From assembly GCF_056712565.1 (NCBI RefSeq), contig NZ_CM160072.1: a stretch of DNA of 64,000 bases, one strand, 5' to 3'. This document shows, piece after piece, positions 43,801 through 49,800 of the stretch (position 1 is its first letter; every line of letters starts with the position of its first letter). A program made the position numbers.

Positions 43801-46800
43801 TGTTCGATAGCCTGATTGAGTTTATCGAAGATAGCCTGATTACTCGCATCAATCTGATTCTGAAAGATGAGAAGGACACCACAGCGCGCCTGCGTCTGAT
43901 TGTGTTGCTGCTTCTCGGTTTTGGTGAGCGTAATCCTGGCCTGACCCGCATCCTCACTGGTCATGCACTAATGTTTGAACAGGATCGCCTGCAAGGGCGC
44001 ATCAACCAGCTATTCGAGCGTATTGAAGCGCAGTTGCGTCAGGTATTGCGTGAAAAGAGAATGCGTGAGGGCGAAGGCTACGCGACGGATGAAACCCTGC
44101 TGGCAAGCCAGATCCTGGCCTTCTGTGAAGGTATGCTGTCACGCTTTGTCCGCAGCGAGTTTAAATACCGCCCGACGGATGACTTTGACGCCCGCTGGCC
44201 GCTAATTGCTGCACAGTTGCAGTAATATGACGCCGGATGACTTTTCATCCGGCGAGTTTCTTTAAACGCCGAACTCTTCGCGATAGGCCTTAACCGCCGC
44301 CAGATGTTCCGCCATTTCTGGCTTCTCTTCCAGATAGGCAATCAGATCTTTCAAGGTGATGATAGAGATCACTTTGCAGTTGTAATCACGCTCAACTTCC
44401 TGAATTGCCGAAATCTCGCCGCGCCCCCGTTCCTGACGATCGAGCGAAATCAATACGCCAGCAAGCGTCGCGCCATTGGCCTGAATAATTTCCATCGACT
44501 CGCGAATCGCCGTTCCGGCGGTGATCACATCATCCACCAGCATTATGCGTCCTTGTAACGCGCTACCGACCAGATTGCCGCCTTCACCGTGGTCTTTTGC
44601 TTCTTTGCGGTTAAAGCAGTACGGCAGGTCCAGGTCATGATGCTCCGCCAGCGCCACGGCAGTTGTGGTGGCAATCGGGATCCCTTTGTAAGCAGGGCCA
44701 AACAGCAGATCGAACTCAATGCCGGAATCCACCAATGCTTCAGCGTAAAAACGGCCTAACAGTGCCAGATCGCGCCCGGTATTAAACAGCCCGGCGTTGA
44801 AGAAATAGGGGCTTTTGCGCCCGGATTTCAGCGTGAACTCGCCAAACTTTAACACCTGCTTGCTAAGCGCAAATTCAATAAACTGGCGCTGATATGGTTT
44901 CATGCCTTCGCTCCTCATCTTACTTTTCTACAGACAAAAAAAAGGCGACTCATCAGTCGCCTTAAAAATCAGTTTGCCAGCGCCGCCTTCTGCGTCGCTA
45001 CAATGGATTCGATTCCCCCTCGGGCCAGCGCCAACAAGGTGAGTAACTCTTCGTGGGTGAACGGTTCGCCTTCTGCCGTCCCCTGCACTTCAATGATACG
45101 CCCGTCTTCGGTCATCACTACGTTCATGTCGGTCTCTGCGGCAGAGTCTTCAACATATTCCAGATCGCAAACCGCTTCGCCGTTCACAATCCCGACAGAG
45201 ACCGCGGCTACCATCCCTTTCATTGGATTAGTTTTCAGCTTGCCGTTTTCCACCAGCTTCTGTAGCGCATCTGCCAGCGCCACGCAGGCACCCGTAATCG
45301 AAGCGGTACGCGTGCCACCATCAGCCTGAAGCACGTCGCAGTCCAGCGTAATGGTGAACTCACCCAGTGCTTTCAAATCTACTGCCGCGCGAAGAGCACG
45401 GGCGATCAGACGCTGGATTTCCATTGTGCGTCCACCCTGCTTACCTTTCGCCGCTTCACGCGCGTTACGGGTATGGGTAGAACGCGGCAGCATACCGTAC
45501 TCTGCGGTGATCCAGCCCTGGCCCTGACCTTTCAGGAAGCGCGGCACGCCTTCTTCAATAGAGGCGGTACACAACACTTTGGTATCGCCAAATTCGACCA
45601 GCACCGAGCCTTCTGCATGTTTTGTATAGTTACGAGTCAGGGTAACGGGACGCACCTGATTATTGCTACGGCCTGCTGGACGCATATTGAAATCTCCGGC
45701 TTGAAACAAATGTGGCTGCGCATTATACGGACTTCCGGCGGTTATTCCTATCCTGACAAGGCATCGATGGCTATAATCCTTCCACCTCTCCTTTTATAAA
45801 CAGGAACGTCTATGATCCGCAGTATGACCGCCTACGCCCGGCGTGAAATCAAGGGTGAATGGGGGAGCGCAACCTGGGAAATGCGCTCGGTAAACCAGCG
45901 TTATCTGGAAACTTACTTTCGTCTGCCGGAGCAGTTCCGTAGCCTTGAACCTGTCGTTCGCGAGCGTATTCGTTCTCGCCTGACGCGCGGTAAAGTGGAA
46001 TGTACCCTGCGCTATGAGCCAGATGTTAGCGCGCAAGGTGAGCTGATCCTCAACGAAAAACTGGCTAAACAGCTGGTAACTGCCGCGAACTGGGTAAAAA
46101 TGCAGAGCGACGAAGGAGAAATCAACCCGGTTGATATTCTACGCTGGCCGGGCGTGATGGCAGCCCAGGAGCAAGATCTCGACGCGATTGCAGCTGAAAT
46201 TCTCGCGGCGTTGGATGGCACCCTGGATGACTTTATCATCGCGCGCGAAACCGAAGGTCAGGCGCTGAAAGTGTTGATTGAGCAGCGTCTGGAAGGCGTC
46301 ACCGCCGAAGTGGTCAAAGTCCGCGCCCATATGCCGGAAATCCTGCAATGGCAGCGTGAGCGTCTGGTAGCGAAGCTGGAAGATGCTCAGGTGCAACTGG
46401 AAAACAACCGTCTGGAGCAGGAGTTGGTTCTGCTGGCACAACGAATTGACGTTGCCGAAGAACTGGACCGCCTCGAAGCGCATGTCAAAGAGACCTACAA
46501 CATTCTGAAGAAAAAAGAAGCGGTTGGCCGTCGTCTGGACTTTATGATGCAGGAGTTCAACCGCGAGTCGAACACTCTTGCTTCGAAATCTATCAATGCC
46601 GAAGTGACGAATTCTGCCATCGAGCTGAAAGTGTTGATTGAGCAGATGCGCGAGCAGATCCAGAATATCGAATAAGCTATCAGCAAAAATCACCAAGCAG
46701 CAAAAAACCATAAAGCCCGCGAAATGTCGGGCTTTTTTGTTATCATGAGCTATCATAACGACGCAACAAAGCGCACAATATGCGTGTACATAGAGGTGTA

Positions 46801-49800
46801 CATAATGACTTTCATGTACATTGCTTTATGTACACACCCATATTCGATATTCAGGTATTCGCAATGCCAAAACTCACAGATATGCAGATCCGCGCATGGA
46901 TAAAGGCGGGAGACAGATTTGATGGCAAGGCAGACGGCAACGGCCTTTATATTTGCTACCCCAAAAACTACACAGTCCCGTTCTGGCGATTCCGATATAA
47001 GCTCGCAGGAAAACAGCGGGCTATGGTTATCGGCTCTTACTCCGAACTGTCACTATCAAAAGCCAGAGAAATAGCAAAAGAGCTGTCAGCCAGAGTTGCT
47101 CTTGGCTATGACGTAGCAGCAGAAAAACAGGAACGAAAAGCTGAAGCACTGGCAAAAATGGAGGCTGAGAAAAACGCCATGCGCGTTTCAGATCTGGCCG
47201 CCGAATACTTCGAGCGACAGATACTTCCGAGATGGAAACATCCCGATATCCTTCGCCGGAGAATTGATAAGGATATTAACCCCTGCATTGGGCATATGAA
47301 GGTAGAGGACGTTAAGCCACGCCACATTGACGACATGTTGAAAGGTATCGTTGACCGAGGAGCACCAACGATAGCAACAGATGTATTACGCTGGACACGC
47401 CGTATCTTTGACTATGGGATAAAACGCCACGCTCTGGAGATAAACCCTTGTTCAGCGTTTGAAGTATCTGATGCTGGTGGTAAAGAGGTTTCCCGCGACC
47501 GTTGGCTAACTCGCGATGAGCTTATCAGGCTATTCGAGGCTATGCGCACCGCAAAAGGATTCAGCCGCCAGAACGAACTGACATTTAAGCTATTGCTGGC
47601 ACTATGCGTTCGTAAGATGGAGTTATGCGCCGCACGATGGGAAGAGTTTGATTTAGATGGTGCGGTATGGCATTTGCCGGAAGAACGCAGCAAAAACGGA
47701 GACCCTATTGATATACCTCTACCTTCTCCTGCCGTTGAATGGTTGAGAGAGCTACACACCTTTTCATGTAATAGCGCATGGGTGCTTCCAGCCAGGAAGA
47801 TGCAAAACAGAATGATCCCACATATTCAGGAAAGCACTTTACCCGTAGCACTGGCTAAGGTTCGCGCCGAAATGCCGGATGTGCCTAATTTCACGATTCA
47901 CGACTTCCGGCGTACCGCACGTACTCATTTAGCAGCATTGGGTGTTGATCCTGTCGTAGCGGAACGATGCCTCAATCATCGCATTAAGGGTGTGGAGGGG
48001 ATTTATAACCGCCATCAGTATTTTGATGAGCGTAAAGCTGCGCTGGCACAGTGGGCTGATCTGCTGGTGGCACTGGAAAGCGGGAAAGACTACAACGTAA
48101 CGCCATTCGATAAAGCCCGGAGGCAAATGTGAACAACATCTTGAGAAAATCGCCAATCGAACGGCTTTGTTCATCTGTATCGATTACCCCTCATGAAATG
48201 GCTGTGGCCTTGGCTGGCCTAAACCCATCTATGCGCATTAGCGATGTGCCTGAGGAAAATTTCGAATATGTCGATTTTGTCAGAACTCATCTTGCCAGAG
48301 CTATCAAGGTGTACAGAGGTGAAAAAACTAGTAAAGACGAGCCTTGCCATGCCCTTGATATTTTCTTAGCTTCTTACCCATTTATTGACACAAATACACC
48401 AGAAATAATTGTTCAGAAAATATCAGAAGCGATTGATGATTTGCGTGGCACCAAGGGCTGGGAAGAAAAAGCCCGAAACCTTGGAGGACTCCAGTTAGTA
48501 AACTACATCAAAGAAACCAACCGCAGCGGACGTGGGCAGCATAGAAAGCAGGATGAGGAAAACGGGACAATGAAAATGATGGGGTTGATAGTACATCTGC
48601 TGATAAAAAAATCAGGCTCATCTTCCTACATCCAAAATGGGAAACCTAATCGCACAGCTATATACCGTGACATAGAAACCTTAATCAAGGATGAAGGGAT
48701 ATCCCATAAAGGAATAGCAAAAGCCACATTCCTAGAAAAAATCTCACGGGCTTTATTAGCTGTCCACGATCTCGACTAATCACTTTTCACGCCCCTCCAA
48801 AGCAATGGCGGGGCATTACCTGTTTACCCATCTCCACCAGCATAGATAATTCTATGCCTAGCCATTGCTATATCTGTTCGGCTTAGTTCATCTGTAATCA
48901 CCCCATCTCTAAAAGATACGCCAGCTATCATTAGCCATTTTAAGCCATCATGAGCCATTATAAACCGACTCAACCAATTGAATAATAAAAGATAAAAGGA
49001 AATGTAAAAACATGATGAATGACGATGAAAGATATAACTCTTTGATAAAACAATGATTTTTTAAACTGGTAACTAATTGAAAATAAAGAAAATAATTATC
49101 CCACCTGCATTTGCAATCTTTCAGTGGATCGGTATTTTTTCAATAGATTTATAATTTCTTTCAATAGATTCTAGTCTTAATAGAAATACTGTATGGGCAA
49201 CCACTAAACTTTAAGTAACTTCATGAGCTATCAGAGAGGTTACTAGAGATATGACAGCACACAAGCCAGCATCATCAGCTATCCCAACAACTGGATACAT
49301 CCGTCGCTTTCGCATGCCGGAATTGCTAGGTGTTTCACTGCCTACTATTGATAGATGGGTTAAAAATGGCACTCTTCCACGCCCAGTGAAGCTAACAGAT
49401 AACGTGACTGCGTTTGATGCGGTGGAAATTAATAACTGGCTGGCAGAACGCCGAAACACATCAGCCTGATTAAATGACTACGGGGGATGACGTTCAACCC
49501 CACCAGCAAACAAAAGTAACTTAATTTAATAGCAGGTGTTTTTATGAAACTGCGAAAAACGCCCGTACAGGGGCAGGGCTTCGTTCGGCCTGAAACCAGC
49601 ATGAGCGATATTCTGGTTCGCCACAAAGCGGAGTCGCGCATTGATTCCCGCTTATTTGCTGAGCGTATTGGCATAAAGCACAAAAACCTTTATTCGCTCA
49701 TTCAGAAGCACAAAACCGGATTGCGTGAACTGGGCATCCTTCCGTTTCAAACGGAGCGATTAAAAACCCGTCAAAACGGGGAGCGTGAACATAAGTTTGC

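What the first reader, a model, noticed from the sequence alone, without database searches (positions are those of the whole stretch)
46783..46836. Four phased TGTACA palindromes in front of int
The hexamer TGTACA, with similar flanks (GTGTACATA, GTGTACATAA, ATGTACATT, ATGTACACA), occurs four times in 52 bp just upstream of the integrase start. This looks like a clustered binding-site array, possibly for autoregulation or arm-type binding.
Basis: seen in the sequence. Interest (0 to 1): 0.4.

Follow-up and report, generated by a model that had tools for sequence, protein, structure and literature searches.

The report
Integrase arm-binding sites at yicC island
The four TGTACA motifs are real and are almost certainly the accessory ("arm-type") docking sites that this island's P4-family integrase uses to assemble its recombination complex. 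This is a well-known kind of element, here in a version not described in the papers I could search.

Summary
TGTACA occurs four times within 50 bp (46785, 46797, 46815, 46829), ending 28 nt before the int ATG at 46864, and only six more times in the 64-kb window.

The window is E. coli. A roughly 20-kb P4/PICI-like island sits in the 3' end of yicC. The functional unit is an oriented 10-mer, GTGTACATAA, rather than the palindrome: two direct copies followed by two inverted ones.

A second direct pair of the same 9-mer lies at the far end of the island, 61 nt before the attR core. In the excised attP the repeats would therefore flank the core, with the same layout as the annotated "attP arm sequence repeats" of phage P4.

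In about 37 relatives, from Enterobacterales to Rhodocyclaceae, the sites keep their positions but the motif differs (ATAA, ACCT, CCCAA, CCAA). It matches between the two arms of one element. It also tracks a hypervariable hairpin (residues 30-41) of the integrase's arm-binding domain, and does not track AlpA or the rest of Int.

Verdict: these are Int arm-type sites (P' arm), a new member of a known kind. Autoregulation of int and a leader hairpin remain possible extra roles and were not tested. Interest is modest.

The parts
45812..46675 (+). Host gene yicC (YicC-family endoribonuclease). Its 3' end is the integration target.
   Evidence: Pfam YicC-like_N and YicC-like_C; RefSeq annotation.
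46655..46675 (+). attL core, CAGATCCAGAATATCGAATAA (the last 21 nt of yicC). It is repeated at attR as CAGATCCAGAACATTGAATAA, beyond the window end at L002 20252-20272.
   Evidence: Direct repeat D12; three-way alignment with the empty K-12 site; the core lies 189-211 nt before int in nearly all relatives.
46712..46741 (+). Island-supplied intrinsic terminator for yicC (hairpin plus T-run), lying between the core and the arm sites.
   Evidence: Terminator scan; the hairpin is conserved in position in 34 relatives.
46737..46779 (.). Conserved spacer block (TTGTTATCATGAGCTATCATAACGACGCAACAAAGCGCACAAT). Its function is unassigned. It is a candidate site for accessory factors (excision factor or host bending protein).
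   Evidence: Conserved among Enterobacterales relatives whatever their motif class; no IHF consensus found.
46784..46793 (+). Arm-type site P'1, GTGTACATAG (direct).
   Evidence: TGTAC is invariant at this column in relatives.
46796..46805 (+). Arm-type site P'2, GTGTACATAA (direct, 12 bp after P'1).
46812..46821 (-). Arm-type site P'3, ATGTACATGA on the minus strand (inverted, 2 mismatches). This is an optional site, present in only some relatives.
46826..46835 (-). Arm-type site P'4, GTGTACATAA on the minus strand (inverted).
   Evidence: GTACA is near-invariant at this column.
46864..48132 (+). int, a P4-family tyrosine integrase. Residues 1-90 form the arm-DNA-binding domain. Residues 30-41 (ICYPKNYTVPFW) are the proposed specificity hairpin.
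   Evidence: Pfam PF13356, PF22022 and PF00589; PDB sequence hits 3JU0 and 3JTZ/3RMP; AF2 model and Foldseek; covariation.
49251..49469 (+). alpA-family HTH gene (candidate activator or excision factor). It is not the binder of the TGTACA sites.
   Evidence: Pfam PF05930; its similarity does not follow motif class.

Best explanation
The four motifs are the int-proximal (P') arm-type binding sites of the attachment site of a roughly 20-kb P4/PICI-like island integrated in the 3' end of yicC. The island's integrase binds two kinds of DNA. Its C-terminal domains bind and cut the core, which is the last ~21 nt of yicC. Its N-terminal arm-binding domain binds the oriented 10-mer GTGTACATAA. In the excised circle, two direct copies lie about 61 nt to one side of the core. 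Two direct plus two inverted copies lie about 108 nt to the other side, just before int. Int monomers bridging arm and core sites would fold attP into the recombination complex (intasome) that carries out integration into yicC and, from attL and attR, excision. Shown here: the sites, their presence on both arms, the P4-like layout, the fold of the Int domain, and the covariation. Inferred: physical binding, which sites are used in which direction, and that residues 30-41 read the variable 3' half of the motif. Because the array sits directly before int, Int occupancy may also dampen int expression, as reported for P4. That part rests on analogy only.
For: (1) The exact 9-mer GTGTACATA occurs 5 times in 49 kb and nowhere else. 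Three copies are before int (+,+,-). Two direct copies are at the island's far end, 61 nt left of the attR core. The shared stretch is only 24 nt, so this is not a larger duplication.
(2) The island ends are defined by comparison with the empty K-12 site.
(3) The P4 record annotates 'attP arm sequence repeats' in the same order and at similar distances. P4 reads: 2 tandem 12-mers, 53 nt, core, 112 nt, 2 tandem 12-mers, 1 inverted copy, int ATG. This element reads: pair, 61 nt, core, 108 nt, pair, inverted copies, 28 nt, ATG.
(4) Int carries PF13356 (E=1e-19). It matches the solved arm-type domains 3JU0 and 3JTZ/3RMP by sequence and by fold (Foldseek top 3, TMt 0.70-0.89).
(5) In 34 aligned relatives the site positions are conserved while the spacers drift.
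(6) The motif variant differs between elements but matches between the two arms of one element. This was seen in 7 elements, and only 2 of 5040 permutations reach the observed own-arm identity. Two further E. coli islands with both arms (L072, L074) were inspected by eye and are broadly consistent, although the L072 arms differ by one base per site.
(7) Motif class is predicted by Int residues 30-41 in about 37 elements. The rest of Int does not predict it: L007/L014 are 98% identical outside the hairpin but 33% within it, with different motifs, and at least 5 such pairs exist.
(8) AlpA and the ORF downstream of int do not follow motif class.
Against: There is no binding or recombination experiment; all evidence is comparative. 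Site P'3 is degenerate and absent in many relatives. Which residues contact DNA was not checked against the 3RMP coordinates. The inverted arrangement also yields a stable hairpin, so part of the conservation in the proximal arm could serve a transcript structure. No IHF consensus site was found to complete a classical intasome picture. No excised attP junction was recovered from public viral contigs.
Confidence: 0.85

Rival explanations
1. Operator for autoregulation: the array overlaps the int promoter, and Int (with or without AlpA) bound there represses int transcription. This is an additional role and is compatible with the arm-site role.
For: The array ends 28 nt before the int ATG. P4 Int represses its own promoter through DNA binding near the int start, and KplE1 IntS arm-type sites overlap PintS (PMC2951348). 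PAI I536 IntI represses its own promoter (PMC7286903). CATAAT, a -10-like hexamer, lies in site P'2 (46801-46806; read).
Against: No sigma-70-like promoter was found in 46500-47100 under the scan criteria. The CATAAT has no recognisable -35 and is not conserved in the CCCAA, ACCT or CCAA classes. The distal pair at the other island end has no gene to regulate. In a related ICE, int is driven by the upstream host promoter and by a 3'-end promoter rather than by its own (PMC13023037).
Confidence: 0.35
2. Leader hairpin: sites 1 and 2 pair with sites 4 and 3 in a yicC-int read-through transcript (or as a DNA cruciform). The stem-loop would attenuate int expression in the integrated state.
For: Window 46770-46866 folds to -26.8 kcal/mol with z = -3.3. 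27 of 37 relatives have z < -2 for the same region. ICEKp1 uses stem-loops in the int 5' UTR to attenuate read-through from the host gene (PMC13023037).
Against: Any inverted pair of protein sites folds in this way. A strong intrinsic terminator already lies upstream. The distal arm holds only direct copies and cannot form the hairpin. P4 has one inverted copy overlapping the ATG. Covariation with a protein hairpin is not explained by an RNA structure.
Confidence: 0.15
3. Binding sites for the excision factor or regulator AlpA (Vis/Xis-like) or another island protein, rather than for Int.
For: The island encodes an AlpA-family HTH. P4 Vis acts at the int region (as cited in PMC2951348 and PMC7286903).
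Against: AlpA similarity does not follow motif class. XM AlpA is 89% identical to that of a CCCAA-class element and 87.5% to that of an ACCT-class element, but only 58% and 34% to those of two elements of its own ATA class. Several elements with the array gave no AlpA hit. ORF216 downstream of int does not follow class either. In EcCICFT073, AlpA does not control int (PMC6092414).
Confidence: 0.04
4. Chance clustering or a host-factor site in AT-rich intergenic DNA.
For: The region is 39% GC, and TGTACA overall is not over-represented in the window.
Against: None of 200 simulations reached more than 2 copies in 50 bp. The positions are conserved across classes of bacteria while the motif changes between elements, which a conserved host factor would not allow. 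The empty K-12 site has no such motif.
Confidence: 0.01

Closest known systems
Phage P4 attP 'arm sequence repeats' (annotated in NC_001609; Pierson & Kahn 1987, cited from memory and via PMC7286903)
   Same: Same integrase family. Same order and similar distances: a tandem 12-bp-spaced pair, about 55-60 nt, the core, about 110 nt, a tandem pair, an inverted copy or copies, then the int start.
   Different: The motif differs (P4 uses TGGGGGCAT-type; here it is GTGTACATAA). The target differs (a leucyl-tRNA locus in P4, per PMC7286903; the 3' end of protein gene yicC here). Here there are two inverted copies, ending 28 nt before the ATG rather than overlapping it.
Phage lambda attP arm-type sites P1, P2 and P'1-P'3 (Ross & Landy 1982, as cited in PMC2951348)
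   Same: The logic of an integrase binding both arm and core DNA. There are two sites on the distal arm and three or four on the int-proximal arm. An intasome is assembled by arm-core bridging.
   Different: The arm-domain family is unrelated at sequence level (PF13356 here). The proximal arm here mixes direct and inverted copies. The accessory-factor sites (IHF, Xis, Fis) were not identified here.
KplE1/CPS-53 attL, with IntS arm-type sites overlapping PintS (PMC2951348)
   Same: Arm-type sites lie immediately upstream of int in attL, and the integrase represses its own gene.
   Different: The promoter was mapped experimentally in KplE1. No promoter was found here.
Arm-type binding domains of the HPI and HAI7 integrases (PDB 3JTZ, 3JU0, 3RMP)
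   Same: Int residues 3-91 match by sequence (E 3e-6 to 7e-6) and by fold (Foldseek probability 1.00, rmsd 1.5-1.9 A).
   Different: Identity is only about 28%. Their DNA motifs and tRNA targets differ. The contact residues were not compared.
yicC-targeting integrases of mobilizable genomic islands (MGIVflInd1, MGIVmi1, SGI1-like IEs; PMC8409611)
   Same: The same integration target (the 3' end of yicC), with int next to attL.
   Different: Those islands are conjugatively mobilized and carry rdfM or AcaCD/SetCD-responsive modules. This one has a satellite-type gene set (alpA, primase, iterons). No paper in the searched library mentions arm-type sites together with yicC. Sequence relatedness to those integrases was not tested here.

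Membership tests
Arm-type Int-binding sites of a P4-type attP | The element's integrase carries an N-terminal arm-DNA-binding domain. | tested here: met
   PF13356 at E=1.1e-19; PDB 3JU0 and 3JTZ/3RMP by sequence and by fold.
Arm-type Int-binding sites of a P4-type attP | Repeats lie on both sides of the crossover core in attP, outside the core, and differ in sequence from it. | tested here: met
   Proximal copies lie 108 nt right of the attL core and the distal pair 61 nt left of the attR core. GTGTACATA is unrelated to CAGATCCAGAA....
Arm-type Int-binding sites of a P4-type attP | The layout is equivalent to the annotated P4 arm repeats. | tested here: met
   compared.
Arm-type Int-binding sites of a P4-type attP | The sites are conserved in relatives and specific to the element's own integrase. 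| tested here: met
   Positions conserved in 34 relatives. Own-arm match reached by 2 of 5040 permutations. Motif class follows Int residues 30-41 and not the rest of Int.
Arm-type Int-binding sites of a P4-type attP | The Int N-terminal domain physically binds the repeats. | not testable with these tools
   Needs EMSA or footprinting.
Arm-type Int-binding sites of a P4-type attP | The repeats are required for integrative or excisive recombination. | not testable with these tools
   Needs attP x attB and attL x attR assays with mutated sites.
Int-autoregulated int promoter (P4 Pint, KplE1 PintS type) | A promoter for int overlaps the Int-binding sites. | tested here: inconclusive
   No sigma-70-like site passed the scan. 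A lone CATAAT lies in site P'2, and no conserved promoter appears in the alignment.
Int-autoregulated int promoter (P4 Pint, KplE1 PintS type) | Int lowers transcription from that promoter. | not testable with these tools
   Needs reporter fusions with and without Int.
Excision-factor (AlpA/Vis/Xis) binding sites | The sites co-vary with the element's excision factor. | tested here: not met
   AlpA identity is unrelated to motif class.
Described structured RNA (Rfam) | A match to a curated covariance model at the gathering score. | tested here: not met
   Only sub-threshold chance hits.

The most novel reading that the evidence does not exclude
Integrases that share one chromosomal target (the yicC 3' end) have diversified into at least four or five arm-site specificity classes. 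They appear to have done this by swapping a 12-residue hairpin of the arm-binding domain together with the arm motifs on both arms. These classes could act as orthogonality groups: different satellites could sit in tandem at the same site, or compete for it, without one integrase assembling on or excising the other. The hairpin-to-motif pairing would then be a readable recognition code (R31/D36 with CCCAA, S31/N35-Y36-Q37 with ACCT, C31-x-P33 with ATAA, C31/F36/K40 with CCAA).
Probability: 0.25. Interest if true: 0.55.

Novelty: new member of a known kind. Interest (0 to 1): 0.33.

Why it matters
It defines the full attachment-site anatomy (core, both arms, site orientation) of an island family present in about 9% of complete E. 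coli genomes and in many other Proteobacteria. That is what is needed to predict excision, to build integration vectors, or to stabilise or cure these islands. The natural hairpin and motif swaps between near-identical integrases give a ready-made experiment on how P4-family arm domains read DNA. They may also supply a set of mutually orthogonal integrases for one target site. As biology it is an expected feature of a well-understood recombination system.

Tried and rejected
A sigma-70 promoter scan of 46500-47100 found none. An IHF consensus (WATCARNNNNTTR and relaxed forms) in both arms found nothing canonical. An Rfam scan of 46500-47000 gave only chance sub-threshold hits.

A search for an excised attP junction in IMG/VR found none. 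The two IMG/VR contigs carrying the distal pair are integrated forms.

AlpA and the 216-aa ORF downstream of int were tested as alternative binders. Neither follows motif class.

Whole-Int similarity was tested as an explanation for motif class. It is rejected, because the classes are interleaved.

The GGTACGCAG repeat pairs found 7.7-10.9 kb downstream of int in four relatives were considered as distal arms. They were rejected: the motif differs, no core follows, and they look like replication iterons.

A literature search for yicC together with arm-type found no paper. The HPI/HAI7 structure papers are not in the searchable library.

The 450-aa ORF starting at 46780, which would place the array inside int, was rejected in favour of the conserved start at 46864.
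Full report
**Observation.** The window holds only 10 copies in all, which is about the chance expectation. 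The anomaly is therefore the clustering. None of 200 Markov-simulated windows had more than two copies within 50 bp, and the Poisson probability is about 8e-8 per site. The spacing is 12, 18 and 14 bp, so 'phased' is only loosely true.

The array ends 28 nt before the int ATG at 46864. The mechanical ORF from 46780 would swallow the array, but it is not conserved. The RefSeq start, the conserved MPKLTD N-terminus and the Pfam domain boundary all point to 46864.

**Context.** The window is E. coli and is 100% identical to strain ExPEC XM. Downstream of yicC lies an island of about 20 kb. It encodes int, a 216-aa ORF, alpA, Rha/AntA/Bro-type regulators, an Icd-like protein, a DUF927 primase, SSB, ProQ/FinO, PerC and large unannotated cargo ORFs. 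This gene set resembles P4-like or PICI-like satellites (compare PMC6092414).

The island runs past the window end, so I read its right end from the public record (L002). Alignment with the empty K-12 site shows a 21-nt core, CAGATyCAGAAyATyGAATAA, which is the last codons of yicC. It is present at attL (window 46655-46675) and at attR just before dinD. The island replaces the yicC 3' end and supplies a new terminator (46712-46741). The 3' end of yicC is a known integration hotspot (PMC8409611).

**What the repeats are.** The exact 9-mer GTGTACATA occurs five times in 49 kb and nowhere else. Three copies lie before int, in orientations +, + and -. Two direct copies lie at the far end of the island, 61 nt left of the attR core. 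The unit is therefore an oriented 10-mer, not a palindrome:
- P'1 at 46784-46793 (+)
- P'2 at 46796-46805 (+)
- P'3 at 46812-46821 (-, degenerate)
- P'4 at 46826-46835 (-)

In the excised circle the order would be: distal pair, 61 nt, core, 108 nt, proximal pair, inverted copies, 28 nt, int.

The GenBank record of phage P4 annotates 'attP arm sequence repeats' in the same order. It reads: two tandem 12-mers, 53 nt, core, 112 nt, two tandem 12-mers, one inverted copy at the int ATG.

The integrase carries the P4-type arm-DNA-binding domain (PF13356). Residues 3-91 match the solved arm-type domains of the HPI and HAI7 integrases by sequence. An AlphaFold model of residues 1-110 (pLDDT 86) has those three entries as its only significant Foldseek hits.

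**Comparative test.** A scan of one genome per species returned 67 loci. In the roughly 35 with at least 60% identical Int, from Enterobacterales to Aeromonas, Tolumonas, Vogesella, Zobellella, Azonexus and Rhodocyclaceae, int starts 189-211 nt after the yicC core. A MAFFT alignment shows conserved blocks at the core, at the terminator, and at sites P'1, P'2 and P'4. P'3 is present in only some.

The motif itself changes between elements. The variants are GTGTACATAA (this island, Rosenbergiella gaditana, an O157:H7 island), GTGTACACCT, GTGTACCCAA, (A/G)TGTACCAA and GTGCACCC. In most relatives the site is not palindromic, which fixes the orientations as two direct followed by one or two inverted.

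Where both ends of an element were available (7 elements), the distal pair carries the same variant as the proximal pair. Only 2 of 5040 permutations match the arms as well.

The variant is also predicted by a hypervariable stretch of Int, residues 30-41. In the model this stretch is the end of one strand, a loop, and the start of the next strand. The pairings are:
- CYPKNYTxPFW with ATAA
- SYRENYQTPVW with ACCT
- RYRxxDKxPTW with CCCAA
- CYRxxFxxPKW with CCAA

The rule held on three further E. coli islands fetched afterwards.

The rest of Int does not predict the class. R. gaditana and R. australiborealis integrases are 98% identical outside the hairpin and 33% identical within it, and they have different motifs. 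At least four other close pairs behave the same way. AlpA and the ORF downstream of int do not follow the class either.

**Mechanism.** Taken together, the array is the P' arm of the attachment site, and the pair at the far end is the P arm. Int monomers would bind arm sites through the N-terminal domain and the core through the C-terminal domains. This would fold attP (or attL and attR) into the recombination complex, as established for lambda and inferred for P4. Binding, site usage by direction, and the role of residues 30-41 are inferences.

**Possible extra roles.**
- Autoregulation. P4 Int and KplE1 IntS repress their own promoters through such sites (PMC2951348, PMC7286903). Here no sigma-70-like promoter was found and no promoter element is conserved across classes. 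In the P4-type ICEKp1, int is driven by the upstream host promoter and a 3'-end promoter instead (PMC13023037).
- A leader hairpin. The inverted copies let a read-through transcript fold into a stable hairpin (z = -3.3; 27 of 37 relatives have z < -2). This could attenuate int as in ICEKp1. However, it is also the automatic consequence of inverted protein sites, and it cannot explain the distal direct pair.

**Novelty and score.** Arm-type sites are textbook, and the P4 layout has been known since 1987. For yicC-targeting integrases I found no description in the searchable literature. I therefore rate this as a new member of a known kind, with modest interest.

The most interesting by-product is the modular hairpin and motif swapping among integrases that share one attB. 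It offers a simple recognition-code experiment and possibly orthogonality groups among competing satellites. Tandem islands of different classes occur in Erwinia psidii and Pantoea stewartii, but I did not test that idea further.

Noticed in passing
window 55261-55383 (L002 8733-8855); second cluster at L002 19632-19783, beyond the window end: There are eleven exact copies of GCGGGTTAY (0.9 expected) in two clusters. One is just after the DUF927 primase gene and one is near the island's right end. They look like replication iterons arranged like the P4 ori and crr.
   Followed up: partly
window 46770-46866: The arm sites can pair (site 1 with site 4, site 2 with site 3) into an RNA hairpin of -26.8 kcal/mol (z = -3.3). 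A similar fold potential is seen in 27 of 37 relatives. It may attenuate yicC-int read-through, or it may just be a by-product of inverted sites.
   Followed up: partly
window 46737-46779: A block between the terminator and the arm sites (TTATCATGrGCTATCATAAaGACGCAACAAAGCGCA) is conserved among Enterobacterales relatives whatever their arm class. Aeromonas-type relatives instead have ACTCCG repeats there. It is a candidate site for an excision factor or a bending protein.
   Followed up: no
L073 32331-34321; L074 32528-34529: Some E. coli islands at yicC carry their own second copy of dinD at the right end, next to the host dinD.
   Followed up: no
L002 19602-20357 (minus strand; beyond the window end): RefSeq CDS CXG97_RS29025 spans the iteron cluster, the distal arm pair and the attR core. 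It is probably a spurious gene call.
   Followed up: no
window 57470-60001 and 60001-62061, continuing beyond the window (L002 15533-18289): Three large consecutive ORFs (843, 686 and 918 aa). The two inside the window have no Pfam match; the third was not scanned. They are cargo of unknown function, possibly an anti-phage system.
   Followed up: no
L006 ~17250, L007 ~17730, L013 ~20930, L036 ~12130: Clusters of GGTACGCAG and GGTTCGCA repeats lie 7.7-10.9 kb downstream of int in four relatives. They are distinct from the arm motif and are probably origin iterons of those islands.
   Followed up: partly
L029 9700-10003 (Klebsiella michiganensis): A 64%-identical integrase sits next to the 3' end of a different host gene, yet it is preceded by the same kind of GTGTACmC array with extra copies. 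This looks like a change of target site with the arm architecture retained.
   Followed up: no
L019/L035 (Erwinia psidii), L015 (Pantoea stewartii), L018 tail: Tandem islands occur at yicC. Where readable, the neighbouring islands belong to different arm-motif classes, and the second int is often decayed.
   Followed up: partly
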